From positions 140,414 to 204,413 of the forward strand of contig CBDBKM010000005.1 in assembly GCA_965206695.1 (NCBI GenBank): a stretch of DNA of 64,000 bases, written 5' to 3'. The position numbers and the translations under genes are program-made. Source of the DNA: Chlamydiales bacterium (GTDB lineage Bacteria; Chlamydiota; Chlamydiia; Chlamydiales; JAAZZY01). Under the pieces are notes generated by a model. That model had not been told where the DNA came from and did no database searches. It worked only from the letters and a program-made list of their open reading frames with translations. Positions 5,090-28,668 of this stretch are shown in pieces; the first letter of the stretch is position 1, and every line of letters begins with the position of its first letter.

Positions 5090-6115
5090 TCATCCAACAG
5101 CATTTTCTAAACAGATCTCTTTCAAAGCCTTTATCCAGAATGAATTAGCATTAAGCCCTTTAACTAAATCTAGGGTATCCCCTCCCATTTTTTTAAATTG
5201 AGATTGATACTCCCCCTCAATTTCAAAAATGGTTTCCAAACAATCAGAGACAAAAGCAGGACAAAAAACCAGAATTTTTTTCTTCTTTTTTTGAATCATC
5301 TCTTTCAAAACATCATTAAAATAAGGTTCTAGCCACGGATCAGAACCTAGGCGAGATTGAAAACAGATGGAATACTGTTCTTTTGTTAGACCTAAAGAAT
5401 CAACCAATATTTTGGTTGTTTTATGACATTGAGCGGAATAACAAAATTGATTTCTTTCATCATTTTTCTGACAACAATCTTTTGTGCCTAGACAAAAATT
5501 GTTGGTATCCGCTTTTTTTATTTGCCTGATAGGCAACCCATGAAAACTAAATAGAATGTGGTCATAAAAGCTAAGGTCATAGTCTTTTGCTAACCTAACG
5601 TAGGAAGAGATGAAAGAGGAGTGATCAAAAAATTGATTAATAAAACTTAACTTCGAATAAGCTTGCCAAGATTTAATCTCTTTCATCACTTTTTCATAAA
5701 TGGAACCCACCGTAGCTGATGCATATTGAGGAAACAGTGGAACAACTATAATATGAGCAACATTTTTACTTCTAAGACGATTTAAACCTTGTTTAATACC
5801 GGGCTCTTGATACCTCATAGCAAGTTCAACGTGAAACTCATCTCCCAGCAAATCATTTAAGCCTTTTGTAAGTTGATTACCGTAAACTAAAAGAGGAGAA
5901 CCTTCATCTGTCCAAATAGATCGATACATTTTATAGGTATTAAAAGAACGAAAAGGAACAATAAGGCCTTTTACCAATATACTTCTGAAAAAAGAGGGTA
6001 TGTCAATAACTCTAGAATCCATTAAAAACTCATTTAGATAGCTTCTAATAGCTTTTAGAGTGCACGCCTTCGGTGTACCTAAATTAACTAATAATATGCC
6101 TGTTTTATTTTTCAT
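5090..6115 (-). CDS. hemH: Ferrochelatase
   Basis: GILLVNLGTP, PLFPQYAS, FSFHGLP, FQSRLG..WLEPY, FVSDCLETIFEI motifs. Confidence 0.97.
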   Translation of the reverse strand: MKNKTGILLVNLGTPKACTLKAIRSYLNEFLMDSRVIDIPSFFRSILVKGLIVPFRSFNTYKMYRSIWTDEGSPLLVYGNQLTKGLNDLLGDEFHVELAMRYQEPGIKQGLNRLRSKNVAHIIVVPLFPQYASATVGSIYEKVMKEIKSWQAYSKLSFINQFFDHSSFISSYVRLAKDYDLSFYDHILFSFHGLPIRQIKKADTNNFCLGTKDCCQKNDERNQFCYSAQCHKTTKILVDSLGLTKEQYSICFQSRLGSDPWLEPYFNDVLKEMIQKKKKKILVFCPAFVSDCLETIFEIEGEYQSQFKKMGGDTLDLVKGLNANSFWIKALKEICLENAVG

Positions 6116-6229
6116 TACTCAAGTAATAGGGATGTGAAAAAGTAAAACCCTTTTTAATAATTGTATCATTGGATACTTTTTTATTCCCTCCATGTGGAGA
6201 TTGCTGCGAGGTATCCCGTTTATGTTTTC

Positions 6230-6345
6230 TTGACAGCTCCCAACCCTAAAGGGAAGGGATTCCTAATTCATCGACCACTGCTAACAAACAAGCTAGTCTA
6301 ACATGATCTCCAAAGGCTTACATTACCGACTGCCCTGCGGTATCG
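6230..6345 (-). ncRNA. TnpB omegaRNA (reRNA) scaffold; guide predicted from flank 6214-6229
   Basis: Overlaps the tnpB 3' end and runs to the RE hairpin/TCAA, the established TnpB omegaRNA architecture. The 5' boundary is uncertain. Confidence 0.75.
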
Positions 6346-7421
6346 AGATTAATAGATGCATTAAGATCTCTATCGTGTGTTACTTTGCAGTTTGGACACT
6401 GCCAACTTCTCACACTTAAATCTAAAATTTCTATTTGGTACCGGCAGGCAGAGCATAGTTTTGAACCGGCAAAAAATTGATCTAATTCCACTATATTTCT
6501 TCCGTACCATTCACACTTATACTTTAAAAATGTTAAAAACCGGCTCCATCCTGCATCCGATATATGCTTGGAAAGTTTTTTATTTTTTAACATCTTATTA
6601 ATATTTAACCCTTCTATCGTGATCGTTTGGTTTTCACGAGCCAACTTTGTAGAAAGTTTATGATGAAAGTCCTGCCTTATATTTTTTATCTTCGAATGTA
6701 TCGAAGCCACCGATCTTCTTTTTTTGAGTCTGTTTTTACCTTTGACTTTAGCTTTGCTAAGAGAACGTTGTTTTCTTTTTAGTCTTTTCTTATGAAATCT
6801 AAAAGGTTTAGGTGCCGTAATCTTTTTCCCTGTAGAAAGAGTTGCGAATGTCGTTAATCCTAAATCTATACCGACAGAATTATTTCTCTTCTCAAAAGGG
6901 ATCACTTCTTCTTCTACTAATAGGCTCACAAAATACCTGTCACAAGAGTCTTTTGTGATTGTTATACCTGTTGGTGTACCTAAAAAACACCTTGACCAAT
7001 GTATTTTTAATCTGTCTTTAGATTTTGCAATCTTAAGATTAACCCCATCCCAACTAAATGCTGACTTAGTTAATCGTATTGCCTGCGTACTGTGTTTGTT
7101 TTTAAAGCGAGGGAAATTTGACCTTTTTTTAAAAAAGTTTAAAAAAGCTCTATCAAGATCTCTAAGACTTTGTTGCAGACAAACAGAAGAAACTTCGTTT
7201 AACCAAAGAAACTCTTTGTTTTGCTTAAGACTTGTCAAGAATGCCGATGTTTTAGAATAACTTACATTCTCTTTGTATTCCTGATATTTCTTGATCTTAA
7301 AGTTTAAAGCTTGATTATATACAACTCCGGAACATCCAAAGCTTTTTGCAAGCAACTCCTTTTGTTTTTTCGTTGGATAGAATCTAAATTTATATGCTTT
7401 TTTGATCATCATGTATTGCAT
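6318..7421 (-). CDS. tnpB: RNA-guided endonuclease TnpB, all three RuvC acidic residues present
   Basis: N-terminal AYKFRFYPT HTH; GIDLG (RuvC-I), ITIEGL (RuvC-II), CSAC..CPNC zinc finger, DRDLNA (RuvC-III). Confidence 0.97.
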   Translation of the reverse strand: MQYMMIKKAYKFRFYPTKKQKELLAKSFGCSGVVYNQALNFKIKKYQEYKENVSYSKTSAFLTSLKQNKEFLWLNEVSSVCLQQSLRDLDRAFLNFFKKRSNFPRFKNKHSTQAIRLTKSAFSWDGVNLKIAKSKDRLKIHWSRCFLGTPTGITITKDSCDRYFVSLLVEEEVIPFEKRNNSVGIDLGLTTFATLSTGKKITAPKPFRFHKKRLKRKQRSLSKAKVKGKNRLKKRRSVASIHSKIKNIRQDFHHKLSTKLARENQTITIEGLNINKMLKNKKLSKHISDAGWSRFLTFLKYKCEWYGRNIVELDQFFAGSKLCSACRYQIEILDLSVRSWQCPNCKVTHDRDLNASINLDTAGQSVM

Positions 7422-7812
7422 TATATGTCCGGTATATATATATTGTCTATCCGGAAAGACGGAAAACCTCTAAAACAGCAGTTTTTAACCTTAGTTACCA
7501 TGTTATTTGGTGTCCTAAATATAGGAGAAAGGTTCTTGAAGGTGATATTGTTGTTCGTTTAAAGGAATTATTAGAATTAAAAGCTCTACAACTAAATATA
7601 GAGATTAACGAACTGAATATTATGCCTGATCACGTACATATTTTTTTAAATACCAAGCCTATATATTCACCACAATTTTTCATAGGACAACTTAAGGGAT
7701 ATACAAGCCGAATATTAAGGCAAGAATTTTCAAGCTTAAGATCTAGGTTACCCACACTGTGGACACGGTCTTATTATGTTGATAGTGTTGGAAAATTAAA
7801 TGAATATACAAT

Positions 7813-10517
7813 CCGACATTCCTAGACCTCTAAACAAGTTTTTCTAATTAAGCCATACATCCTCATTGCAGTCTTTCCAAACAAAACAATAATCTTTTTC
7901 CGAAGACGGGTTAAATTTGTGATCATTTCTTTACAAATTCTCCGGGAAGTCTTCTGAAAAAAACGGATTATTCCGATACCTTCCATAATTTGGAAAATCC
8001 ATCTTAATGTTGGATTTTTGACTTCCTTTCCTAATTGGTTGGGTAATGTCTCTTCTGTTTCTATCAATTTTTGTCGAAGTTGATATTGTCCGATATTATA
8101 AACCATTAAACACAATGTCATAACCATCATTAATGCTTCAATGCGTCGAGGGGTTTTTAAAAAAATAGAATCAACCATAAACCAAGGATCTTTTAAAAAG
8201 CGAAACCCTCCTTCAACCTTTTGCTGTTCTTTATATTCTTCTAACATCATCTCATCTTTATAATTTTCTCTATCGGTGTCATTCGTAGCTAAAATAAACC
8301 GTCCTTTTCTATTCATCAGTTTATTAATTTCTTCTTCTTCCCTTTCAAAGCTAGCATGAATCTTGTATCCAACAACTTGTTTTTCCTCTCCTTGTTTAGG
8401 TTTGCCTAATTTACCATATTTTAGAATCGGCAATATCTCACTATTCATGGAATATAAATGATTTTTTTTAGTCAATCTGCCCCAAGCTTTTTTAGCATCA
8501 CTTTCGCATTTAAATTCCTCATTACCCAAATGCCAAAGTTGTTTCTTGAGCTTTTCTTCTGCCTTGGTCAATTTTTTTTCTAATGATTTTATCTCTCTCT
8601 GATAGGCTTGCTCTGAAAAAACCAAAAGCCATCTTTGTTTAATCCCTCCATAAAAAGAGGTGAAGCTGCATGTTTTATATCCTTTCTCCTGATCAATCCA
8701 ATCAATTTCTTCTTCCGGTTTTTCTACTAATCTTTTTGCTTCTCCTATTATCTCGGGAACTCGGGTGAGCCATTTATAATCATTATTTTTTAAGAGCTTT
8801 TCTTTTGTGTATAACGCTGAATCGGCAACCCACTTAAACTTTGTTTTTACATCAATCTGTTGTTGAAATTCACTGATTTTTTTGATCGTCTCATGAAAAC
8901 TTGCTTTATCAGAACTATTGCCGTCTAAGGCTTCCATCCATAGAGGCATAGAACTCGGACCATTGGTAACGAGAGAAAGTACAACTTGTTTCAAATCAGG
9001 TCTATGATCTTTAGAATAACCCTGCTTAATCTCAATCACTTGCGGATCATCTTTCACTTCATACGACCCATGAACGGAAAAGCTTGTTGTATCTATAGTA
9101 TTTTAATTTTTATTTGATAATATGTTATCCTTTTTTTTTTATACAAACAGTAAGGACAAAACAATGCCTAGAGCCTATTCAGTAGATCTTCGAGAGAAAG
9201 TATTACAACATATAGAAAAACATCATGATAAAAAAACAGCCGGCCATATTTTTCAAGTAGGTATCGCAACAATATATCGATGGATCTTGCAAAAAAAGCA
9301 AAAAGGACATTTAAAGCCAATCCGCAGAAAATATGCTTATAAAAAATTAGATGATGAGTTGTTATCTAAATATGTAGAAAAACATCCGGATTATTTTTTA
9401 TCGGAAATTGCTCATTATTTTTCAGTCACTCCGCAAACGATTTTTTATGCCCTTAAAAGATTAAAAATTACACGAAAAAAAAAACTACTCGCTATAAGGA
9501 AAGAGATGAAAAGAAACGGGAAGCTTTTATGAAAGATTTAAAAAATATTCCCTTTGACAAGAGAATTTATCTCGATGAAACCGGGATTCATCAATTTTTA
9601 TTTCGTGAGTCCGGAAGAAGCTTACGCGGCAAAAAAGTTTTTGGAGCGGTTTCAGGAAACCGCTTTATAAGGCAAAATATTATTTCAGCCCTATCTAAAG
9701 GGCAGTTTTTATCTCCAATGTGTTTTGAAGGTACTTGTAATACCGGGTTATTCAATATTTGGCTTAAGGAAGTTTTGACTCCTCAGCTTACACCCGGTAG
9801 TGTTCTTATTCTTGACAATGCCGGTTTTCACAAGTCAGCGGAAAGCAGGAAAATAGTAGAATCTGCCGGTTGTAAGCTTATGTTTCTTCCTCCATATTCT
9901 CCGGACTTAAATCCTATAGAAAAATATTGGGCTAATATGAAAAATAAAGTTAAAGAGATATTACGAAAAGTTACGAATTTTAAATTCGCCATTGATCAAG
10001 CAATCTTATCAATGTAAAATTAAATGACTATAGATGATGCGTTTTTTGTAGTAAATCATGGTCTAGGGCTATTCCAAAAGAAACTTCAGCAAATAATTTA
10101 CTGCTCCCATATTTCGCAATATCATCCAAAGCATGACCTAAAGTATAATCTGTGAGATCTTCTGCTCGAAGATTGTTGCCAAGTAAATTCTCTATCGATT
10201 TAGAAGCAAAAAATTGATGTGTTAGGTAGAGACGTCTATTAGTAAACCCTAATCCATTCAGAATCATTGCAATTACTGCCTGTCCCGCACTTACTTTTCT
10301 TTGTGGATGATTTTTTAATCCGGTATCAATCCTTTCCGCTACCTTTAGATCGCTGCAAAGTGCTGCAATTAATCCATGGTGATCCATGTTCACTGTTTGA
10401 ATATTATCTCCTGCAACTTCCGGCATAACTTTTCTCCTTGTATCAAATAAAAAGTAACAGGATAGGCAATCTATAATTCTAATTCAAAAAAAATATCTTA
10501 CGGTCTAGGAATGTCGG
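7813..10517 (-). mobile_element. IS1634-family element copy 1, transposase split by IS630-A (ORF pieces 10028-10426 and 7822-9057)
   Basis: Perfect 16-bp IR CCGACATTCCTAGACC; TSD TACAAT; GYSKDHRPDLKQ, ADSALY, RIEALMMVM motifs. Confidence 0.95.
9094..10032 (+). mobile_element. IS630-A full length, inserted into the IS1634 transposase
   Basis: The empty site GTATCTAGATG is visible in IS1634 copy 2 (about 40214), so the TA duplication is shown directly. Confidence 0.97.
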
Positions 10518-10602
10518 TACAATCAAAAAGTATATACGGAATCAAAAAAACAAATAGACACTTTCATCCCACCCTTAAAAAGGTGGGGTTTCTCGTTTAA
10601 TT

Positions 10603-10917
10603 ATAAATCAATTGCTTACAATTATTTCTCTCTTTCAATGCTTCTTGGATTATAAGAGCTGTTTGAAGATAAGTATTTTCATATTGCTTTCGGGTTTTTG
10701 AAGCAACAGACACCAATATAATATCAGCTTCTTTCAAGGTAGAAGCTAAAAGATTGCCATTATTACTATCAAATAAAAAGGTTTTATTGCTAACTTTTCT
10801 TAAATCGGATAGTTTTTTTTCTGTTGTAGTGGTCGTTGTGATATAAAAGCCTAAAGACTGAATAGAAGACGCAACTCTATATCCAATGTAACCACAACCA
10901 ATAATTACGATATGCAT
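10603..10917 (-). pseudogene. NAD-dependent epimerase/dehydratase (SDR) 5' fragment, truncated by the IS605 left end
   Basis: Rossmann motif IVIIGCGYIG; the ORF stops at KQLIY, exactly at the TTAT TAM. Confidence 0.8.
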
Positions 10918-11000
10918 GTAACAACATTTAGTGGAAGGGTAATTTAAAATCCGGTTACAATGTAAAATACATTTAACCGAACCTAAACAAGGAAATAAAA

Positions 11001-11183
11001 ATGAGTGAAGTTTTAGTCATTGCCAGTAAAATAAAAGCACATATTAAAAGTGAATCCGGGATGAATACCTCGGCAAATGTTATGCCCTCTTTAACAAAAA
11101 TTATTATAAAAGAATGTGAAAAAGCGGTTGAAAATGCTAAAAGAGACGGACGAAAAACCGTCATGGATCGAGACTTTGAATAA
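11001..11183 (+). CDS. Bacterial histone-fold protein (Bd0055/HBb type), 60 aa
   Basis: MSEVLVIASKIKAHIK..GMNTSA..L......CEKAVENAKRDGRKTVMDRD closely follows Bdellovibrio Bd0055 as recalled; RKTV..RD histone-fold L2/alpha3 motif; RBS AAGGA. Confidence 0.9.
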   Translation: MSEVLVIASKIKAHIKSESGMNTSANVMPSLTKIIIKECEKAVENAKRDGRKTVMDRDFE

Positions 11184-11194
11184 AATCAACTGTA

Positions 11195-11217
11195 GTAGGG
11201 ATGTTTTTCATCCCTAC
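11195..11217 (+). terminator. Stem-loop downstream of the histone gene (putative terminator)
   Basis: Perfect 9-bp stem GTAGGGATG-TTTTT-CATCCCTAC; the U-tract is weak. Confidence 0.55.
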
Positions 11218-11314
11218 CCTTGTATTTCGGTCTCTCTTACATAAGAGTGTACTCCTTCATTACTTTTAAGACCTTGTATAAAAGCATCAGCTATTTTATT
11301 CGTAATTCTTTTAT

Positions 11315-11589
11315 GACAATTAAGCGAGAAAATCCTTTGCTTTAGCATTGGGATGAGAGCGCTTTTCTCTTGTATTAAACAGTTCTTTTTGTTTGAATTC
11401 CTTTATTTTTCAAAATTGCCGTAGGGTATCCGGAAAGGGTTGTGTAAAAACCCATAACCTTGGAAACTGATACTACTACAAAACGAAAGTAATCCTACTT
11501 TAACTTAAAGTGGGTTGGTAAAGGATTAAAGGAATCTCCTAACCGTGAGGAATAGGAATCCAATGGCTTTAGTCGTTGGAGGAAGTCAA
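11315..11589 (+). mobile_element. PATE-like non-autonomous IS200/IS605 derivative (275 bp) with an omegaRNA-like interior
   Basis: TTAT followed by LE GACAATTAAGCGAGAAAA (same LE as at 18294 and 63414); ends with an RE hairpin CCAATGGC-TTTA-GTCGTTGG and GTCAA; no ORF. Confidence 0.8.
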
Positions 11590-11616
11590 ATTAATTAATC
11601 CAAAATCTTACAATAG

Positions 11617-12489
11617 CTAAATAGTGTCGTCATAAAATAGCTCCCGGGCAATACGGCGAATGTGAACAGCAACCATGAATGATGCCGTATTTTTCACCTA
11701 TCGAGTAGCAATACCACGCCATCGTTTTAAATGAAGAAAAGCATTTTCTACAAGATATCTAAGTTTATATAGGCCTCTATCATGCCTTGCTTATGAGCTT
11801 TTTTAATAATGGCATTGCTATCATAACCACGATCTGCAAGAAGATATTCCGCATCTAATCCCTCTATTAAAGTACTTACTTGTGTACGATCCGCAGTGGT
11901 ACCTTCCGTAATAATAACTCGGACCGGCATACCATGCGCATCCACGGCCAAATATAATGTCGTGTTGAGCCTCCTTTTGTACGGTTCATATCTTGATTTC
12001 CTCCTTTCGCTCCTGCTGTATGGGGATGCATTTTGATATGGCTTGCACCAATTATTAACCATTCATAATCAGGATCCTCAACTATAATTTCCAATAAAAA
12101 TTCCCAAAGCCCCTTATCTCTCCATCGAATAAATCTACGATGAGTATTTTTCCGACCCCCATAGTCAGCAGCAAGATCACGCCATGATGCTCCTGTCCTA
12201 AAAACCCAAAACACAGTGTTGATAAAAAGACGATTGTCTTTTGCAATTGCTCCCCAAGTTCTTTTGCGACCGGAAAGATGAGATTCTAGTTTGTTCCAAA
12301 GTGCATCGGAAATATTGTGCCGTCTATACATTGAATTAGCCATAAAAAAAAACCTTTTTTATTAACTCACCTTACGCACGCCTTCTACTAAGCAGGCTAC
12401 AGAATCAATCTCTCTTCACGAAAGTGCGTGCATAAGGTGAGTTATTAAGCAAATTATCAAATTTAAAGTTTTAAGACGATGCTATTTAG
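11617..12489 (-). mobile_element. IS5-family element (IS427-like, two frameshifted ORFs), degenerate
   Basis: IRs CTAAATAGTGTCGTCATAAAA / TTTTAAGACGATGCTATTTAG; W..RTGASWRDL..DYG, LAVDAHG.P, LLADRGYDS, ENAFLHLKRWRGIATR; internal stops and a deletion. Confidence 0.88.
12363..12444. repeat. 82-bp inverted repeat / hairpin in the IS5 leader
   Basis: TAACTCACCTTAcGCACGC ... GTGCGTGCaTAAGGTGAGTTA: 19-bp arms with 1 mismatch. Confidence 0.7.
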
Positions 12490-12538
12490 AAAGACCTTTA
12501 CCTTTTTATTACGGTAATATCTAGGCTCAATCCTTGCC

Positions 12539-13477
12539 TATAGTCGTTTAATTTTACATTGATAAGATTGCTTGATCAATGGCGAATGTAAAATTCGTAA
12601 CTTTTCGTAATATCTCTCTAACTTTATTTTTCATATTAGCCCAATATTTTTCTATAGGATTTAAGTCCGGAGAATATGGAGGAAGAAACATAAGCTTACA
12701 ACCGGCAGATTCTACTGTTTTCCTGCTTTCCGCTGACTTGTGAAAACCGGCATTGTCAAGAATAAGAACACTACCGGGTGTAAGCTGAGGAGTCAAAACT
12801 TCCTTAAGCCAAATATTGAATAACCCGGTATTACAAGTACCTTCAAAACACATTGGAGACAAAAACTGCCCTTTAGATAGGGCTGAAATAATATTTTGCC
12901 TTATAAAGCGGTTTCCTGAAACCGCTCCAAAAACTTTTTTGCCGCGTAAGCTTCTTCCGGACTCACGAAATAAAAATTGATGAATCCCGGTTTCATCGAG
13001 ATAAATCCTCTTGTCAAAGGGAATATTTTTTAAATCTTTCATAAAAGCTTCCCGTTTCTTTTCATCTCTTTCCTTATAGCGAGTAGTTTTTTTTTTCGTG
13101 TAATTTTTAATCTTTTAAGGGCATAAAAAATCGTTTGCGGAGTGACTGAAAAATAATCAGCAATTTCCGATAAAAAATAATCCGGATGTTTTTCTACATA
13201 TTTAGATAACAACTCATCATCTAATTTCTTATAAGCATATTTTCTGCGGATTGGCTTTAAATGTCCTTTTTGCTTTTTTTGCAAGATCCATCGATATATT
13301 GTTGCGATACCTACTTGAAAAATATGGCCGGCTGTTTTTTTATCATGATGTTTTTCTATATGTTGTAATACTTTCTCTCGGAGATCTACTGAATAGGCTC
13401 TAGGCATTGTTTTGTCCTTATTGTTTGTATAAAAAAAGAAGGATAACATATTATCAAATAAAAATTAAAGTACTATA
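12539..13477 (-). mobile_element. IS630-A full length, apparently intact
   Basis: TA flanks, both IRs, orfA and orfB, A10 tract. Confidence 0.97.
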
Positions 13478-14999
13478 ACATGTAGTTAACCAGTATGCAT
13501 TGCTGCTCGTAATCCCGCCGAGTCTCATCTTCTAATAATAGGTGCACCCAATCCTCCGTCCTCTCCTTCGTGTCAATTTTCAAGCCAAGAGTCGTCAACT
13601 CGCGTTGAAATCGCTCATAGAAGGAACTTGTTCCTGTTGTAACAAACCACTCATCTCTTCTTTGGGCAAGGGCCATAAAGCGATCTATGATGTCGTTACG
13701 GCAAGATGCAGGGGTGCATTGAACTATCCGCAAAACATGCAATTTCTGCTCGATATTCATACCTTGATCTTGTGTAAAGAGCGGAACCAGTCTTTCGATG
13801 AACGTGGTGCGTTCCTTTTCAGGAATAACTGCAAGATACTTCAAGGCTTCAAGTATATTATCGGAAGTTGCATTTTTTCCGATAAATGTCTTAGCCTGCT
13901 TAATGAATTGGTCGCGTTGAATGCCGGGGATATCTTTAATAATCTTCAAAACTTCAATTATACTATCGGAATCCACATTTTCTCTGCTAAGAAATCCCGT
14001 AACCAGTGCACTGAACCGGTCGCGTTGAACGCCGGGGATACCTTTAATAATTTTCAAAACTTCAATTATATGATCAGAAGACATATTTATACTATCGGGA
14101 TTCACATTTTCTCCGATAATACATCCCTTAACCTGCTTAATGAATTGGTTGCGTTGAATGCGGGGGATATCTTTAATAATCTTTAAAATTTCAACTATCT
14201 GAAAAAACCACATCTGTTTTGTGATCAAGCCCTTAGCCTGAATTAAAGTATCAATTTGAAGAGGTTCTTGAACGCAATTGAAAATAACTTCCAAGAGCTC
14301 ATGTATGTGGTCGTCGCTACTCATATTTTCTGTGATCAACATCTTAGCTACTTGAATGCACTGTTCACATTGAGCTTTAGGGATATTCATAACGCCTAAG
14401 GTATTAAGTTTATGCAAAATACGCCGTCTATCAAAGACCTCCATATCTTTTCGGGTAAACTTCTTAGCTAGTTCAATAAGCTGTTCACGTTGAGCTTCAG
14501 GAATATTTTTAATCACCTTCCAGTCGTTAACTATATCATTGGAATTCATAACATTTTGGTTTTCAAGTGTAGCATCGAGAGTTATATATTCTTCGAGCCA
14601 CGCATTAGACTGCTGAATGAGCTGAGCCCGTTCATCTACAGGAAGTGTTAAAATATAATTAAAAAGATCCTGACCCTCATCTAAAGAATCCTTATTCCTA
14701 AATATATGAATAAATAAATTCTGTACTGCTTTCTCTACCCTATTCTTTTCCCTTGTAGAATGAAGATTAGGAATAGCATTCATAATTTTATTTTTGTAAT
14801 TGACCTCAAATAAGCTCATTGATTTTAATATAGCGAGTACAGGTAGCAGTGACACTGTTAGCACAACAACACCGGTGATCCAGGGGCACTTATCATTGAG
14901 AAATGAAACCACGTTAGCAGGCCCATTATTTATCATATCAATATTATTATCTATCACACCGGAAACACTATTAGCTATCGTATTATATATATTAATCAT
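13473..14999 (-). CDS. Hypothetical 508-aa protein with an N-terminal TM segment and 35-43-aa alpha-helical tandem repeats (putative effector)
   Basis: Repeats IIEVLKIIKDIPxxQRDQFIKQAKxFI; the stop codon is supplied by the IS630 end. Confidence 0.75.
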   Translation of the reverse strand: MINIYNTIANSVSGVIDNNIDMINNGPANVVSFLNDKCPWITGVVVLTVSLLPVLAILKSMSLFEVNYKNKIMNAIPNLHSTREKNRVEKAVQNLFIHIFRNKDSLDEGQDLFNYILTLPVDERAQLIQQSNAWLEEYITLDATLENQNVMNSNDIVNDWKVIKNIPEAQREQLIELAKKFTRKDMEVFDRRRILHKLNTLGVMNIPKAQCEQCIQVAKMLITENMSSDDHIHELLEVIFNCVQEPLQIDTLIQAKGLITKQMWFFQIVEILKIIKDIPRIQRNQFIKQVKGCIIGENVNPDSINMSSDHIIEVLKIIKGIPGVQRDRFSALVTGFLSRENVDSDSIIEVLKIIKDIPGIQRDQFIKQAKTFIGKNATSDNILEALKYLAVIPEKERTTFIERLVPLFTQDQGMNIEQKLHVLRIVQCTPASCRNDIIDRFMALAQRRDEWFVTTGTSSFYERFQRELTTLGLKIDTKERTEDWVHLLLEDETRRDYEQQCILVNYML

Positions 15000-21786: not shown

Positions 21787-23907
21787 CTATTCCGGTGATT
21801 CTGTTTTGATTTCGCTGTCTGCTGTCAAGGCACGATTAGGATCATAATTAAGGCCATAGCTTACAAAAAACTCTGCCTCTTTCTCGATATCCCTATTAGC
21901 CACATAAAAAGTTAGATTTTTACCGAAACGGACTCCACATATATTATTATCTCCTATTTTTTCACAATCTCCGAACTGACCGGTATTTACGTATCTCAGG
22001 TGGTTTCCTGATTGGAATCCATCAACACCACGCAGATCCGAGTTTGTTGCAAATAGATATTCTGAATATCGCCTCACTCCATATTGTCGTCTTCCATCCA
22101 AAAAACCTTCCTCTCCTTCACGAAGAACCCCTGCATAAGGCCCTAAAACTTCGAATTGTTTTATATCTCTCTTTGCAAAGGTAGAGCTTCCTCTGTTTAT
22201 CCCCATATCTAGAGGAATAGCAATTTTATAAATAGCATCCAAACGATTGTAATATTCACTTCTATCCTCTTCACTTAATGTTAACCACTCACGCATGCTG
22301 TCTTTCATTTTATCTTTAATTGCATTTTTTTCCGATGTAGTTAACTTCCTTATTTTTGAGGTAGTCGATTGCTTTTTTGTCAAGGTAGTTGCTTCATCCA
22401 GATATTTATGAAGGCCACACCAACATGTGACCTTAATCGACCCTATTTTTCCTTCACGTTCCAATAGAAGGCTCTGTGTGTTATCCTTCGGGTTTTGCAG
22501 TACAGGTAAGGTTCTATCTATTATATGAGTAAATGGCTCTTTTTTTATAAATAGAACCTCATTACCGGTAATATTACCGGTAATAAGTCGAGGTGTTTGA
22601 GATATCTGTCGGTGTATAGTATCTTCGAGTCTAATCTCCGGGTTTTTCATTTGATGTATTATTGTAGGCGAATGCTTATCCGTACCTACCGGTGTTGCAG
22701 AGATTCTATCTTTAAAATCTTTTTTATCTTGCTGTTTAGAAGAAATCTTCCGGTCTTTAAGTATCTGTAATTGAGATATTTGATCTATAGGTAAAGTCTT
22801 GTTTATTGTATGAGTAAATCGATACTCTTCTTGAATCTGATAATCCGGATCTGCATTTTTACAATCATTTAACAATGGTCCTTCTTTCATAGATACAATC
22901 TCATTATCAACGGCAGAAACAACCTCATTAGTAGATCGAGCTGCATTATCGGTAGATACAAACTCATCGGAAGGATCTTTTTGGCAGCTAATTTTCTTGC
23001 TTTTAGCAAGGTGTGATAATGACATTTTCTTTTTAGTTTTTTCACTATGTGGTTTAACCGGGGTTTTATAAGGCTCTTTCTGGATTTTCATATGCCGGAA
23101 TATAACTGCCAGGCGATTTATTCGCTGTGTTATAGATATTCTATCTTTAGTTTCTTTAGTATGTGTGTAAGCAGACTTTGATTTTTTAACTGGACTTGCA
23201 GAAGAATGCTGCTTGTCTTTAATCTCCTTAAGTCTAATCTTCAGCTCCTTAATTCGACATGTTATATTCCTTTCCTCTTTAGTTTCTTCAGTATGTGTGT
23301 AAGCAAACCTTGATTTTTTAACTGGACTTGCAGAAGAATGCTGCTTGCCTTTAATCTCCTCACGTCTACGCTGCAACCATTTCGCTGCATTCATTGCAAC
23401 CATCACTTGAGTTGCAATTTCCTCACTCTTTTTTCCACTATGTTCTTGACCCGGCCATTTGGAAGGATGATCCTTGAGTCTACTCCGGGCTTTAATCTCC
23501 TTAAGTCTAACCTTCAGCTCCTTAAGTCGACATGTTATATTCCTTTCCTCTTTAATTTGTTCACTAACATGTCTTTTTTCGCCGGAAGACTTTTGAGTAG
23601 GTTTGTCATCTAGACTTGTGAAAGGATTATTCTGGCATCTACGTTGCTTTTTTTGAGGCATTTCCTCTCTATTTTTGTCACTAAACCGTCTTTTAGTGGG
23701 GAAAGGTGAAATTGGAAATTCATTGGGGACAGATGGAGGTTCATTGGGGACAAATAAAAGAAAGTAGGGTATAAGTGGAGGAGGTTCAGGTGGAGGAGGT
23801 GCAGGTGGGGGAGGTTCAGGTGGAGGTTCATTGGGGTCAGGATCAAAAAAAAATGAAAGCAGGTAGGGTGAAAGCACGTTTGGGTTTTCAGGGCTAAAAA
23901 TACTCAT
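21787..23907 (-). CDS. 706-aa SET-domain protein (putative secreted lysine methyltransferase/nucleomodulin)
   Basis: C-terminal GSSTFAKRDI..LGPYAG..YLF..GNHLRYVN..FYVANRDIEKEAEFFVSYG..Y; polyproline N-terminus; NLS-like basic clusters; 44-aa internal repeats. Confidence 0.8.
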   Translation of the reverse strand: MSIFSPENPNVLSPYLLSFFFDPDPNEPPPEPPPPAPPPPEPPPLIPYFLLFVPNEPPSVPNEFPISPFPTKRRFSDKNREEMPQKKQRRCQNNPFTSLDDKPTQKSSGEKRHVSEQIKEERNITCRLKELKVRLKEIKARSRLKDHPSKWPGQEHSGKKSEEIATQVMVAMNAAKWLQRRREEIKGKQHSSASPVKKSRFAYTHTEETKEERNITCRIKELKIRLKEIKDKQHSSASPVKKSKSAYTHTKETKDRISITQRINRLAVIFRHMKIQKEPYKTPVKPHSEKTKKKMSLSHLAKSKKISCQKDPSDEFVSTDNAARSTNEVVSAVDNEIVSMKEGPLLNDCKNADPDYQIQEEYRFTHTINKTLPIDQISQLQILKDRKISSKQQDKKDFKDRISATPVGTDKHSPTIIHQMKNPEIRLEDTIHRQISQTPRLITGNITGNEVLFIKKEPFTHIIDRTLPVLQNPKDNTQSLLLEREGKIGSIKVTCWCGLHKYLDEATTLTKKQSTTSKIRKLTTSEKNAIKDKMKDSMREWLTLSEEDRSEYYNRLDAIYKIAIPLDMGINRGSSTFAKRDIKQFEVLGPYAGVLREGEEGFLDGRRQYGVRRYSEYLFATNSDLRGVDGFQSGNHLRYVNTGQFGDCEKIGDNNICGVRFGKNLTFYVANRDIEKEAEFFVSYGLNYDPNRALTADSEIKTESPE

Positions 23908-27027: not shown

Positions 27028-28668
27028 TCATACTAGCTCTCCGTAAATGGTCAATCGACCAAGATTGTCAGGGAGCTCCTTTACTCTATCTTTAAAAGAT
27101 TCCAGAATACTATCTTTTAATGCTCTACCGCTATTAAAACCCGTGATAACAGTTATATGTGGTATTTTATTCTGATTCATAAAAAATTGTATTGCTACTT
27201 TGGCAACAGAAGGATGGATTCCTGACATGCCATCTCCGCCTTTCATTGGATAAGTATAAAACGAGTTGCGATGTAAGTTTAAAGTATTATTGTTTAACTC
27301 CTGTATCAAACCTTCAATATACATCTTAGCAAAGATCTCCAAAGCCTTCTCTGTTTTACCACCTTTTTCACAAGCAGAGATGACAGCATTATAGGTAATC
27401 TCATCAGGTGTAATACCGGCATCAGGCATCTTATTAAAGATCTCCAAAGCCTTCTCTGCTTTACCACCTTTTTCACAAGCAGAGATGATAGCATTATAGG
27501 TAATCACATTAGGTTTAATAGCGGCATCAAGCATCTTAATCTTATTAAAGATCTCCAAAGCCTTCTCTGTTTTACCACCTTTTTCACAAGCAGAGATGAT
27601 AGCACTATAGGTAATCACATTAGGTGTAATACCGGCATCAGGCATCTTATTAAAGATCTCCAAAGCCTCCTCTGCTTTACCACCTTTTTCACAAGCAGAG
27701 ATGACAGCATTATAGATAATCACATCAGGTGTAATACCAACAGGAGTTGCCTTAAAGATCTCCAAAGCCTCCTCTGCTTTACCACCTTTTTCACAAGCAG
27801 AGATGACAGCACTATAGGTAATCACACTAGGTTTAATACCGGCATCAAGCATCTTATTAAAGATCTCCAAAGCCTCCTCTGCTTTACCACCTTTTTTACA
27901 AGCAGAGATGACAGCACTATAGGTAATCTTATTAGGTGGAATACCGGCATCAGGCATCTTATTAAAGATCTCCAAAGCCTCCTCTGTTTTACCACCTTTT
28001 TCACAAGCAGAGATGACAGCACTATAGGTAATCACATCAGGTTTAATACCAACAGGAATTGCCTTAAAGATCTCCAAAGCCTCCTCTGCTTTACCACCTT
28101 TTTCACAAGCAGAGATGACAGTATTATAGATAATCACATCAGGTGGAATACCGGCATCAGTTAAATTGTTGAGTAATCTAATAGCATCTTGATAATTGGC
28201 GGTAGGTTTTGTAATTAAAGATACGGTACACTTCAAAACATCTTGGAGATTTTTAGTTCCGCTACGATACTGCTTAATGATGATGCTATTATCCAATACA
28301 GGTTTATGTTGTCTTGATGCTGAGGAGTTTTGCCCGCTAAAAGACGAGCAAGAAGCTCTATTATAATTAGATAACGTATGAGACGCTAAAGATTGAACCT
28401 GATTTAAGATAGATTCTTTTTGAGAGGGCTTTAATTGTAACCAATTTTCTGTTAAATCTCCGTATCCTGTTAAATCTCCGTATCTTAGTGAACTGGCGGG
28501 TGTTTTATCTTTTATATATGCACTAAAATGATCTTCTATACCTTGATCATGCTGATAGTGGACAAAATAATCATTATACCTCAGTCTGTTGGATTTAATA
28601 TACTCTTTATTATTAAATATATAATTATTTATTAGATTAAATTCTGTAGAAGAGTTACTGGTTAACAT
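27028..28668 (-). CDS. PPR-Smr protein A (8 P-class PPR repeats plus C-terminal Smr domain), 546 aa
   Basis: Repeats VITYxAVISACEKGGKAEEALEIFNKMPDAGIxPx fit the PPR consensus; C-terminus TLNLH...ITVITGFNSG...DNLGRLTI fits Smr. Confidence 0.9.
   Translation of the reverse strand: MLTSNSSTEFNLINNYIFNNKEYIKSNRLRYNDYFVHYQHDQGIEDHFSAYIKDKTPASSLRYGDLTGYGDLTENWLQLKPSQKESILNQVQSLASHTLSNYNRASCSSFSGQNSSASRQHKPVLDNSIIIKQYRSGTKNLQDVLKCTVSLITKPTANYQDAIRLLNNLTDAGIPPDVIIYNTVISACEKGGKAEEALEIFKAIPVGIKPDVITYSAVISACEKGGKTEEALEIFNKMPDAGIPPNKITYSAVISACKKGGKAEEALEIFNKMLDAGIKPSVITYSAVISACEKGGKAEEALEIFKATPVGITPDVIIYNAVISACEKGGKAEEALEIFNKMPDAGITPNVITYSAIISACEKGGKTEKALEIFNKIKMLDAAIKPNVITYNAIISACEKGGKAEKALEIFNKMPDAGITPDEITYNAVISACEKGGKTEKALEIFAKMYIEGLIQELNNNTLNLHRNSFYTYPMKGGDGMSGIHPSVAKVAIQFFMNQNKIPHITVITGFNSGRALKDSILESFKDRVKELPDNLGRLTIYGELV
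27298..28137 (-). repeat. PPR array A: 8 repeats of 102, 105, 105, 102, 105, 111, 105 and 105 bp
   Basis: Near-identical tandem DNA repeats. Confidence 0.95.

What the first reader, a model, noticed from the sequence alone, without database searches (positions are those of the whole stretch)
11001..11183. Bd0055-type bacterial histone
Seen: a 60-aa tail-less histone-fold ORF with an RBS and a downstream hairpin, intact although IS debris surrounds it. Established: Bd0055-type histones bind DNA in Bdellovibrio, and histone-fold genes have been noted in some environmental chlamydiae; chlamydial elementary-body chromatin otherwise relies on H1-like Hc1/Hc2. Inference: a possible role in developmental nucleoid compaction. 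Whether the SET protein 11 kb away acts on it is speculative.
Basis: partly seen in the sequence, partly recalled or inferred. Interest (0 to 1): 0.68.

Follow-up and report, generated by a model that had tools for sequence, protein, structure and literature searches.

The report
HBb-type bacterial histone in a chlamydia
The 60-codon gene is a real, intact bacterial histone of the type already solved in Bdellovibrio, sitting in an insertion-sequence-riddled part of an environmental chlamydia genome; the family was already reported in chlamydiae, so this is a correct call and not a discovery.

Summary
ORF 11001-11183 (+) encodes 60 aa, has an AGGA ribosome-binding site 7 nt upstream and is followed by a 9-bp GC-rich hairpin. 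It lies on a 708-bp unique island between mobile-element DNA.

The protein matches Bdellovibrio HBb/Bd0055 over its full length (E 2e-13, about 55% identity). The AlphaFold model (pLDDT 94) is a histone fold with a one-turn alpha3, and its best PDB matches are the HBb structures. The RD clamp (R51-D58, plus D49), the K52-T53 loop motif and 9 of the 10 main HBb DNA-contact residues are conserved.

It is single-copy and matches the host in GC. It keeps the divergent hemH-histone adjacency seen in three genera of another chlamydial family, so it looks inherited and not IS-delivered.

The gene occurs in 94 of 401 genomes of the order, but in none of the 8 other genomes of its own family. It co-exists with Hc1.

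The SET link finds no support. SET domains occur in 354 of 400 genomes, including all histone-less relatives.

The likely function is a small dimeric, sequence-nonspecific DNA-bending nucleoid protein.

Published work (Hocher 2023; Hu 2024; Schwab 2024) already places this family in Chlamydiota, so this is a new member of a known kind.

The parts
11001..11183 (+). Coding sequence of the 60-aa HBb/Bd0055-type ('bacterial dimer', alpha3-truncated) histone. It is 6.7 kDa with pI 8.9.
   Evidence: ORF. phmmer to PDB HBb 8fvx/8cmp gives E 1.8e-13 over residues 1-59. AF2 pLDDT is 94.4 with helices 2-19, 27-48 and 56-59. Foldseek top hits are 9ezz, 8fvx, 9f0e and 8cmp, TM 0.71-0.76. There are 339 homologues and 15 invariant columns. 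pI and GC come.
10990..10993 (+). Shine-Dalgarno core AGGA, 7 nt upstream of the ATG.
   Evidence: Read directly from the sequence. An SD-like core is present in 25 of 26 orthologue upstream regions.
10956..10968 (+). Candidate -10 boxes TACAAT (10956-10961) and TAAAAT (10963-10968). There is no convincing -35, so the promoter is not established.
   Evidence: Read from the sequence. The consensus scan found no sigma-70-type site. An extended -10 (TGnTAnnnT) occurs in 7 of 26 orthologue upstream regions, against 2.0 +/- 1.3 in shuffles, but not in the window.
11195..11217 (+). Terminator-like hairpin (GTAGGGATG-TTTTT-CATCCCTAC) 12 nt after the stop codon.
   Evidence: dG about -15 kcal/mol, z -3.1. 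Many orthologues have a comparable hairpin just after the stop.
10603..11310 (.). Unique (non-repeated) island that carries the histone gene, its upstream region and its hairpin.
   Evidence: Self-BLAST of 6101-13600 against the whole window.
10597..10917 (-). 106-aa N-terminal fragment of a Rossmann-fold NAD(P)-binding protein. It is divergent from the histone gene and is cut off where repeated IS DNA begins at 10602.
   Evidence: Weak Pfam hits to several NAD-binding domains. No paralogue in the genome. Repeat boundary.
5090..6115 (-). Ferrochelatase gene hemH, the ancestral divergent neighbour of the histone gene. About 4.4 kb of IS DNA plus the Rossmann fragment now separate them.
   Evidence: Pfam Ferrochelatase, 318 bits. 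hemH(-)/histone(+) lie 42 bp apart in L012, and are adjacent in L037 and in G231.
6230..10602 (.). Nested insertion-sequence cluster. It contains an IS605-type tnpB (6318-7421) and a DUF4277+DDE IS (7822-9057 plus 10028-10426) that is split by an IS630 copy (9093-10032).
   Evidence: Pfam, blastn of the IS630 copies, repeat map.
11748..12343 (-). IS5-like transposase in two overlapping ORFs (DUF4096 and DDE_Tnp_1).
   Evidence: Pfam.
12537..13476 (-). Second IS630 copy. It is inverted relative to 9093-10032 and 98.7% identical over 940 bp.
   Evidence: blastn, Pfam HTH_Tnp_IS630 and DDE_3.
21787..23907 (-). 706-aa protein with a C-terminal SET domain. It is probably a host-directed effector and is not linked to the histone gene.
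   Evidence: Pfam SET, 27.9 bits at residues 577-685. SET is found in 354 of 400 genomes of the order whether or not the histone is present.

Best explanation
The gene encodes a small, tail-less bacterial histone of the HBb/Bd0055 type, the 'bacterial dimer' class of alpha3-truncated histones.

By homology, two copies form a histone-fold dimer. The dimer binds the DNA backbone in the minor groove without sequence specificity. Contacts come from the first turn of alpha1 (S9, K10, K12, K16), loop 1 (N22, T23, S24), loop 2 (K52, T53) and alpha3 (R57). The R51-D58 (plus D49) salt bridge holds loop 2 in place. Binding bends DNA and so compacts it. The alternative in-vitro mode is coating of straight DNA.

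In this chlamydia the protein most likely acts as an abundant accessory nucleoid protein alongside Hc1.

The gene is a chromosomal, vertically inherited copy that survived while insertion sequences piled up around it. It is not IS cargo.

What is shown here: the ORF, its translation and termination signals, homology, the fold, residue conservation, phyletic distribution and synteny. What is inferred: dimerisation, DNA binding and bending, abundance, and any stage-specific role.
For: Homology and fold
- Full-length match to HBb, E 1.8e-13.
- AF2 pLDDT 94.4, with alpha1 2-19, alpha2 27-48 and a 4-residue alpha3 at 56-59.
- The top five Foldseek PDB hits are all HBb (TM 0.71-0.76, 52-55% identity). 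The next are Leptospira HLp and archaeal HTkC.

Functional residues
- HBb DNA-contact residues come from PMC11317129. The window keeps N22, R57, S9, T53, S24, K10, K12, K52 and K16. Only T8 differs (A8).
- R51, D58 and D49 are all present (ungapped alignment).

Selection
- 15 invariant and 12 near-invariant columns across 42 homologues, and the window matches all of them.

Expression signals
- RBS and terminator hairpin.

Native gene, not cargo
- Single copy.
- ORF GC 33.9% against 34.4% for the window.
- The divergent hemH-histone adjacency is shared with L012, L037 and G231. It spans the inner IS630 boundary, so the ISs were inserted between the two genes.

Co-existence with Hc1
- Hc1 is present in the same genome and in 67 of 75 histone-bearing genomes.

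Literature
- Bd0055 is the most abundant nucleoid protein in B. bacteriovorus, and the Waddlia chondrophila histone-fold gene is highly expressed (PMC10627809).
- HBb bends DNA (PMC11317129).
Against: - There are no expression or protein data for this organism.
- The promoter is not identified.
- Pfam PF00808 (14.6 bits, below 21.4) and NCBIfam archaea_histone (21.7, below 50) both fall under their cut-offs. The assignment therefore rests on HBb homology and the fold.
- The gene is absent from all 8 other genomes of the same family and from 77% of the order, so it is dispensable for chlamydial development in general.
- The 60-aa tree cannot separate vertical descent from transfer within the phylum.
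- The window sequence sits on a branch about twice the median length (0.42 against 0.2).
- The in-vivo binding mode of HBb itself is disputed: filament (Hocher 2023) or bending (Hu 2024).
Confidence: 0.85

Rival explanations
1. It is a stage-specific chromatin protein of the chlamydial developmental cycle. It would either help Hc1 condense the elementary-body nucleoid, or organise the relaxed reticulate-body nucleoid until Hc1 displaces it. This refines the best explanation and does not exclude it.
For: The organism has Hc1. Histone and Hc1 co-occur in 67 of 75 genomes. Bdellovibrio, where HBb is abundant, also has a biphasic cycle with an extremely compact attack-phase nucleoid (PMC10627809). 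The Waddlia histone-fold gene is highly expressed in a data set that compares elementary and reticulate bodies (PMC10627809 citing PMC6090853).
Against: 77% of genomes in the order, and all 8 relatives of the same family, complete their biology without it. No stage-resolved datum on any chlamydial histone-fold protein was found. No sigma-28-type or other late-gene promoter was identified. The same protein family occurs in many bacteria with no developmental cycle, including Planctomycetota, Nitrospirota and Gemmatimonadota.
Confidence: 0.3
2. The gene is recent cargo of a mobile element. It was brought in by the pair of inverted IS630 copies (9093-10032 and 12537-13476) acting as a composite transposon, or by transfer from another chlamydia. 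That would explain why only this member of its family has it.
For: Two 98.7%-identical IS630 copies bracket the gene in inverted orientation. None of the 8 other genomes of the family carries the gene. The histone tree is unresolved inside the subfamily.
Against: The ancestral neighbour hemH lies outside the IS630 pair, yet the divergent hemH-histone adjacency is the same as in three genera of another family. The ISs therefore landed between pre-existing neighbours. The left IS630 copy sits inside another IS, which fits random nesting. This IS630 has at least seven further copies or fragments in the window. GC matches the host. The gene is single-copy. The relatives of the same family have smaller genomes (1.4-1.9 Mb) and also lack the order-typical hemH, which fits loss in them.
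Confidence: 0.07
3. It is a secreted histone mimic that acts on host chromatin, possibly together with the nearby SET-domain protein, and not a protein of the bacterial nucleoid.
For: Chlamydiae secrete nuclear effectors such as NUE (PMC2904774). The window encodes eukaryote-like proteins: a SET protein at 21787-23907 and PPR repeat proteins.
Against: The family is widespread in free-living and predatory bacteria with no eukaryotic host. Bd0055 is nucleoid-bound and not secreted (PMC10627809). All bacterial DNA-contact residues are kept. SET is present in 354 of 400 genomes independently of the histone. About 10.6 kb holding several unrelated genes and ISs on both strands separates the two genes.
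Confidence: 0.04
4. It is a decaying remnant with no function, an intact-looking ORF that has not yet been hit in a region being destroyed by ISs.
For: The neighbourhood is heavily degraded and the adjacent Rossmann gene is truncated. The terminal branch is longer than median. No promoter was recognised.
Against: Every invariant and near-invariant family position is kept. Differences from the consensus are conservative (V/I, R/K, A/S), apart from E36I. The RBS and terminator are intact. The model confidence is very high.
Confidence: 0.04

Closest known systems
HBb / Bd0055 of Bdellovibrio bacteriovorus HD100 (PDB 8FVX, 8FW7, 8CMP, 9EZZ, 9F0E); 'bacterial dimer' class of alpha3-truncated histones (Schwab et al. 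2024)
   Same: It has the same length, aligns without gaps over residues 1-59 and is about 55% identical. It has the same fold with a one-turn alpha3. It keeps the RD clamp R51-D58 plus D49, the K52-T53 loop and 9 of 10 main DNA-contact residues. It falls in the same well-supported subfamily (99/99) as HBb in the tree.
   Different: The host is an obligate intracellular chlamydia that also has the H1-like Hc1. Residue 8 is A where HBb has T. It is slightly less basic (pI 8.9 against 9.25 for HBb residues 1-59). Nothing is known about its abundance, essentiality or DNA binding.
Histone-fold proteins of other Chlamydiota, for example the highly expressed Waddlia chondrophila gene noted by Hocher et al. 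2023 and the Chlamydiota members in Schwab 2024 and Hu 2024
   Same: These are 60-63 aa orthologues that are 58-70% identical. They share the strong SD, and many share the stand-alone gene plus hairpin layout. The divergent hemH-histone arrangement is shared with three genera.
   Different: This is the only histone-bearing genome among the 9 sampled from its family. The locus is broken up by nested ISs. It has no downstream MFS gene, whereas in several orthologous loci the next ORF is open from the histone stop codon.
HLp of Leptospira (PDB 9QT0-9QT2), the face-to-face (FtF) tetrameric alpha3 histones / DUF1931
   Same: It shares the alpha3-truncated histone fold (TM 0.79, 34% identity) and a similar alpha1 SK.K motif (alignment).
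   Different: The sequence match is much weaker (22.6 bits against 52.7 for HBb). At the two positions that align with the HLp R...N pair, which I take to be the FtF dimer-dimer contacts R48/N52 of Schwab 2024, the window has N45 and D49, as HBb has S45 and D49. That mapping is my inference. No tetramer is therefore expected.
Archaeal nucleosomal histones HMfA/HMfB (PF00808)
   Same: It shares the histone fold, the RD clamp and the RKT loop-2 motif. There is a weak Pfam/NCBIfam match over residues 31-58.
   Different: Both matches are below the curated cut-offs. Alpha2 is shorter and alpha3 has 4 residues in place of about 10. TM is only about 0.5. No tetramer or hypernucleosome interface is present.
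Chlamydial Hc1/Hc2 (HctA/HctB), H1-like nucleoid condensers
   Same: They are small, basic DNA-binding proteins of the chlamydial nucleoid. Hc1 is encoded in the same genome.
   Different: They are unrelated in sequence and fold: lysine-rich and H1-like, not a histone fold. Their late-cycle role is established experimentally, whereas nothing is established for the histone-fold protein.

Membership tests
HBb/Bd0055-type 'bacterial dimer' alpha3-truncated histone | Significant full-length sequence similarity to HBb. The class was defined by sequence clustering (Schwab 2024). | tested here: met
   phmmer gives E 1.8e-13 and 52.8 bits, with residues 1-59 aligned to 1-59 without gaps. The sequence falls in the 99/99-supported subfamily that contains HBb.
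HBb/Bd0055-type 'bacterial dimer' alpha3-truncated histone | Histone fold (helix-loop-helix-loop-helix) with alpha3 cut to 3-4 residues, a shortened alpha2 and no tails. | tested here: met
   AF2 pLDDT is 94.4, with helices 2-19, 27-48 and 56-59. The top Foldseek hits are the HBb structures, TM 0.71-0.76.
HBb/Bd0055-type 'bacterial dimer' alpha3-truncated histone | RD clamp (R51-D58, augmented by D49) and the RKT motif in loop 2. | tested here: met
   The sequence reads ...KRD49GR51K52T53VMDR57D58F. R51, K52, T53, R57 and D58 are invariant in 42 homologues.
HBb/Bd0055-type 'bacterial dimer' alpha3-truncated histone | Conservation of the HBb DNA-backbone contact residues N22, R57, S9, T53, T8, S24, K10, K12, K52 and K16 (PMC11317129). 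| tested here: met
   9 of 10 are identical and T8 is A8 (alignment). Position 8 is A or V in most chlamydial homologues.
HBb/Bd0055-type 'bacterial dimer' alpha3-truncated histone | Forms homodimers only, with no higher oligomer. | not testable with these tools
   The structure tool folds single chains only. The only indirect evidence is that the positions I align to the FtF dimer-dimer residues are N45 and D49.
HBb/Bd0055-type 'bacterial dimer' alpha3-truncated histone | Binds and bends or compacts DNA, and is an abundant nucleoid protein. | not testable with these tools
Archaeal/eukaryotic-type nucleosomal histone (Pfam PF00808 CBFD_NFYB_HMF; NCBIfam NF043032) | Score at or above the curated family cut-off. 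| tested here: not met
   PF00808 scores 14.6 bits against a cut-off of 21.4. NF043032 scores 21.7 against 50. Only residues 31-58 match.
Archaeal/eukaryotic-type nucleosomal histone (Pfam PF00808 CBFD_NFYB_HMF; NCBIfam NF043032) | Full-length alpha3 of about 10 residues, which supports tetramer or hypernucleosome formation. | tested here: not met
   Alpha3 is residues 56-59 only. TM to HMfA is about 0.5.
Face-to-face (FtF) histones / HLp / DUF1931 | Closest sequence relationship to HLp-type proteins, and the conserved R...N dimer-dimer contact pair. | tested here: not met
   HLp scores 22.6 bits against 52.7 for HBb. The aligned positions are N45 and D49, not R and N. Mapping these positions onto the published R48/N52 is my inference.
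Chlamydial H1-like Hc1 (PF07432) | Match to the Hc1 domain. | tested here: not met
   No Hc1 hit for this ORF. The genome's Hc1 gene is elsewhere, at C11:236033-236200, with 76.3 bits.

The most novel reading that the evidence does not exclude
In histone-bearing chlamydiae the HBb-type histone could be a stage-specific chromatin component that works against or with Hc1 during the switch between reticulate and elementary bodies. It could also be a substrate of one of the many bacterial SET-domain lysine methyltransferases, of which this genome has nine loci. That would make a bacterial histone-plus-writer system. My data do not exclude this but give it no positive support: SET presence is independent of histone presence, and the two genes are not linked.
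Probability: 0.04. Interest if true: 0.8.

Novelty: new member of a known kind. Interest (0 to 1): 0.2.

Why it matters
It adds little that is new. It confirms that small, often unannotated HBb-type histone genes are real in environmental chlamydiae, and it adds three modest facts.

- The gene is present in about a quarter of the order (94 of 401 genomes, 53 of 216 genera). It is patchy down to family level, which points to many losses.
- It co-exists with Hc1 in about 90% of carriers, so chlamydial nucleoids can combine an H1-like condenser with a true histone-fold protein.
- The hemH-histone adjacency is conserved across two families and survives heavy IS bombardment here.

The open question is what a histone-fold protein does in an organism with a condensed and a relaxed nucleoid stage. 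That question is interesting and can be tested in cultivable Waddlia or Simkania, but this locus does not make it more tractable than the published examples do.

Tried and rejected
1. Composite-transposon cargo. The inverted IS630 pair brackets the gene, but the conserved neighbour hemH lies outside the pair and the left copy is nested in another IS. Rejected.

2. Horizontal transfer of a hemH-histone block from the family that shares the synteny. The window's hemH is 45-54% identical to hemH of many families and is not specifically closest to that family. The relatives of the same family carry only a distant hemH (30-36%). Loss in the reduced relatives fits better, but this is not proven.

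3. Histone phylogeny. The 87-row, 66-column tree gives two robust subfamilies but no resolution inside them, so it cannot decide between vertical and lateral descent.

4. SET-histone co-occurrence. SET is near-universal (354 of 400), so no association is detectable.

5. Replacement of Hc1. Rejected, because Hc1 is present here and in 67 of 75 carriers.

6. Promoter search. The window has no sigma-70-type consensus site. An extended -10 motif is enriched among orthologues (7 of 26 against 2.0 expected) but is not present here.

7. The antisense 63-aa ORF 10973-11164 (-) also appears 'conserved' in other loci. It is the shadow of a conserved gene. Only the + strand product matches solved structures.

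8. Rfam scan of 9000-13600. No hit.

10. dN/dS was not attempted. The nearest homologue is only 70% identical, so synonymous sites are saturated.

11. The first handles search failed on a list-length limit. It was repeated with 75 handles.

Full report
**Observation**

The window has an ATG-initiated ORF at 11001-11183 on the + strand. It encodes 60 residues: MSEVLVIASKIKAHIKSESGMNTSANVMPSLTKIIIKECEKAVENAKRDGRKTVMDRDFE.
- The open frame from stop to stop is only 68 codons, and the first Met aligns with the first Met of the homologues.
- An AGGA core lies 7 nt upstream of the ATG.
- Twelve nucleotides after the stop there is a 9-bp GC-rich hairpin at 11195-11217. Its dG is about -15 kcal/mol, z is -3.1, and none of 200 shuffles folds as well. 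The T-run that follows is weak.

A self-BLAST of 6101-13600 against the whole window shows repeated DNA at 6230-10602, 11311-11364 and 12533-13479. The gene therefore sits on a 708-bp unique island, 10603-11310. Pfam names the surrounding pieces:
- an IS605-type tnpB;
- a DUF4277+DDE insertion sequence that is itself split by an IS630 copy;
- IS5-like ORFs;
- a second, inverted IS630 copy that is 98.7% identical to the first.

**What the gene is**

- Sequence. phmmer against all PDB chain sequences finds the Bdellovibrio bacteriovorus histone HBb/Bd0055 (8fvx, 8cmp) at E about 2e-13. The alignment of residues 1-59 has no gaps. Leptospira HLp and archaeal HTkC follow far behind.
- Curated models. 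Pfam PF00808 and NCBIfam archaea_histone match only residues 31-58 and stay below their cut-offs. The protein should therefore not be filed as an archaeal-type nucleosomal histone.
- Fold. An AlphaFold2 model built on 42 homologues has mean pLDDT 94.4. It shows alpha1 at 2-19, alpha2 at 27-48 and a single-turn alpha3 at 56-59. Its five best Foldseek matches in the PDB are all HBb structures (TM 0.71-0.76, 52-55% identity). HLp, HTkC, MHF/CENP-S-X and HMfA come next.
- Functional residues. Hu et al. 2024 (PMC11317129) list the main DNA-contact residues of HBb as N22, R57, S9, T53, T8, S24, K10, K12, K52 and K16. They also describe the stabilising RD clamp R51-D58 with D49. The numbering carries over because the alignment is ungapped. 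The window protein keeps all of these except T8, which is A8 here. Position 8 is A or V in most chlamydial homologues.
- FtF contacts. At the two positions that align with the R...N pair of HLp, the window has N45 and D49, as HBb has S45 and D49. I take that pair to be the face-to-face tetramer contacts described by Schwab et al. 2024.
- Conclusion. The protein meets every sequence and structural criterion of the 'bacterial dimer' alpha3-truncated histones. Dimerisation and DNA binding cannot be tested with these tools.

**Family and distribution**

The large protein database returns 339 clusters at E <= 1e-3. The best non-self hit is 70% identical, and several hits come from Chlamydiae MAGs or are labelled 'histone H3/H4' by JGI. 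A pattern scan of GTDB species genomes confirmed at least 538 loci. They lie in Chlamydiota, Bdellovibrionota (including Oligoflexales), Planctomycetota (Scalindua), Nitrospirota, Gemmatimonadota, Myxococcota and others.

A maximum-likelihood tree of 87 sequences splits them into two subfamilies with 99/99 support. The window protein lies in the one that contains every chlamydial sequence and HBb itself. Nothing is resolved inside that subfamily, and the window's terminal branch (0.42) is about twice the median.

Within the window's own order the gene is present in 94 of 401 sampled genomes and 53 of 216 genera. It is absent from all 8 other genomes of the window's family.

The host is a chlamydia, on three grounds:
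- The genome encodes Hc1 (PF07432, 76 bits).
- Genomes of the same order are the records titled Parachlamydiales, Chlamydiales, Simkaniaceae and Candidatus Sacchlamyda.
- The histone lies on a 208-kb contig next to a ferrochelatase of the type common in this order.

**Native gene or mobile cargo**

- The gene is single-copy.
- Its GC content (33.9%) matches the window (34.4%).
- The strongest argument is synteny.
  - In L012 a ferrochelatase gene (hemH, - strand) starts 42 bp from the histone gene (+ strand).
  - hemH and the histone gene are also adjacent in L037 and in G231. These are three genera of another family.
  - The window has the same divergent pair: hemH at 5090-6115 (-) and the histone at 11001 (+). 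The nested IS cluster and a truncated 106-aa Rossmann-fold fragment (10597-10917) lie between them.
  - hemH lies outside the inverted IS630 pair and the histone lies inside it. The ISs therefore landed between pre-existing neighbours, and delivery by a composite transposon is unlikely.
- The window's hemH is 45-54% identical to hemH in many families of the order. The smaller genomes of the same family (1.4-1.9 Mb) have only a 30-36% identical hemH or none. Retention in this larger genome and loss in its reduced relatives is the simplest account, but it is not proven.

**The speculative extensions**

*SET protein.* The SET protein is real: ORF 21787-23907 (-), 706 aa, with SET at residues 577-685 and 27.9 bits.
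- SET domains occur in 354 of 400 genomes of the order, including all eight histone-less relatives of the same family.
- This genome has nine SET loci. One of nine loci lying within 11 kb of a given gene in a 2.46-Mb genome has a chance of about 8%.
- At least two histone-bearing genomes, G033 and G069, have no SET hit.
- The interval between the two genes holds unrelated genes and ISs on both strands.
- Nothing links the two genes.

*Developmental role.* This could not be tested.
- The literature holds no stage-resolved data on a chlamydial histone-fold protein.
- What can be said is that the histone does not replace Hc1. Hc1 is present here and in 67 of 75 histone-bearing genomes.
- The histone is dispensable for the chlamydial lifestyle in general, because 77% of the order lacks it.

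**Mechanism**

By homology the protein forms a histone-fold dimer that contacts the phosphate backbone in the minor groove. The contacts come from the alpha1 N-terminus, the paired L1/L2 loops and R57. The dimer binds without sequence specificity and bends DNA (Hu 2024). At high density it may instead coat straight DNA (Hocher 2023).

In Bdellovibrio it is the most abundant nucleoid protein. Hocher et al. also show high expression of the Waddlia chondrophila histone-fold gene (PMC10627809).

I therefore consider an abundant accessory nucleoid-associated protein the most likely function (confidence 0.85 for identity and general mode of action). Any stage-specific role is a refinement at about 0.3.

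**Novelty**

Three publications already cover this family:
- Schwab et al. 2024 (PMC11390915) list Chlamydiota among the phyla that carry 'bacterial dimer' histones.
- Hu et al. 2024 state that the DNA-contact residues are conserved in Chlamydiota.
- Hocher et al. 2023 cite Waddlia expression.

Earlier follow-ups in this scan reached the same verdict for other chlamydial copies. Those notes are not independent evidence, but my own tests agree with them.

This is a correct identification of a new member of a known kind. The distribution figures, the co-existence with Hc1 and the conserved hemH-histone adjacency are modest additions.

Noticed in passing
whole genome G000; window 21787-23907: The window's genome has nine SET-domain loci, whereas the eight other genomes of its family have one to three. 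This looks like an expansion of SET-domain (probably effector) genes in this lineage.
   Followed up: no
window 7822-9057 (-) and 10028-10426 (-), with 9093-10032 between them: An insertion sequence with a DUF4277 N-terminal part and a DDE_Tnp_1 C-terminal part is split in two by an IS630 insertion, giving nested ISs. Segment 10031-10521 has a 99.8% identical copy at 40219-40709.
   Followed up: partly
window 10597-10917 (-): A 106-aa N-terminal fragment of a Rossmann-fold NAD(P)-binding protein is cut off exactly where repeated IS DNA begins (10602). It has no paralogue in the genome and no counterpart in the orthologous histone loci.
   Followed up: partly
L011 6180-7463, L016 1583-2860, L038 4444-5712, L012 6183-7484: In several chlamydial genomes an MFS-transporter ORF is open from a start codon that overlaps the histone stop codon (xTGA). 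This suggests a histone-MFS operon with possible translational coupling. The true MFS start was not verified. The window has no such downstream gene.
   Followed up: partly
G215, G123, G103, G151, G279, G183, G163 and others: Several genomes of one family, apparently Simkaniaceae, carry a second and much more divergent histone-fold locus. It is 26-34% identical to the window protein, with E 1e-5 to 1e-4.
   Followed up: no
L067 (Bdellovibrionales MAG): The histone domain here is the C-terminus of a 162-aa protein with a cysteine-rich N-terminal part. It is probably a ZZ-histone of the kind described by Schwab 2024.
   Followed up: no
upstream regions of 26 chlamydial histone genes: An extended -10-like motif TGnTAnnnT lies 37-60 nt before the ATG in 7 of 26 loci. 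Shuffles give 2.0 +/- 1.3, and only 1 of 1000 reaches 7. The motif is not present in the window's copy.
   Followed up: partly
G001, G004, G005, G007, G008: The genomes of the window's own family have only a distant ferrochelatase (30-36% identity) or none. The window's hemH is 45-54% identical to hemH of more than 150 genomes from other families. Haem-pathway content therefore differs sharply within the family.
   Followed up: partly
window 27028-28668 (-) and 34107-35747 (+): There are two 546-aa ORFs. The first is a pentatricopeptide (PPR) repeat protein with very strong Pfam scores, a eukaryote-like protein typical of amoeba-associated bacteria.
   Followed up: no
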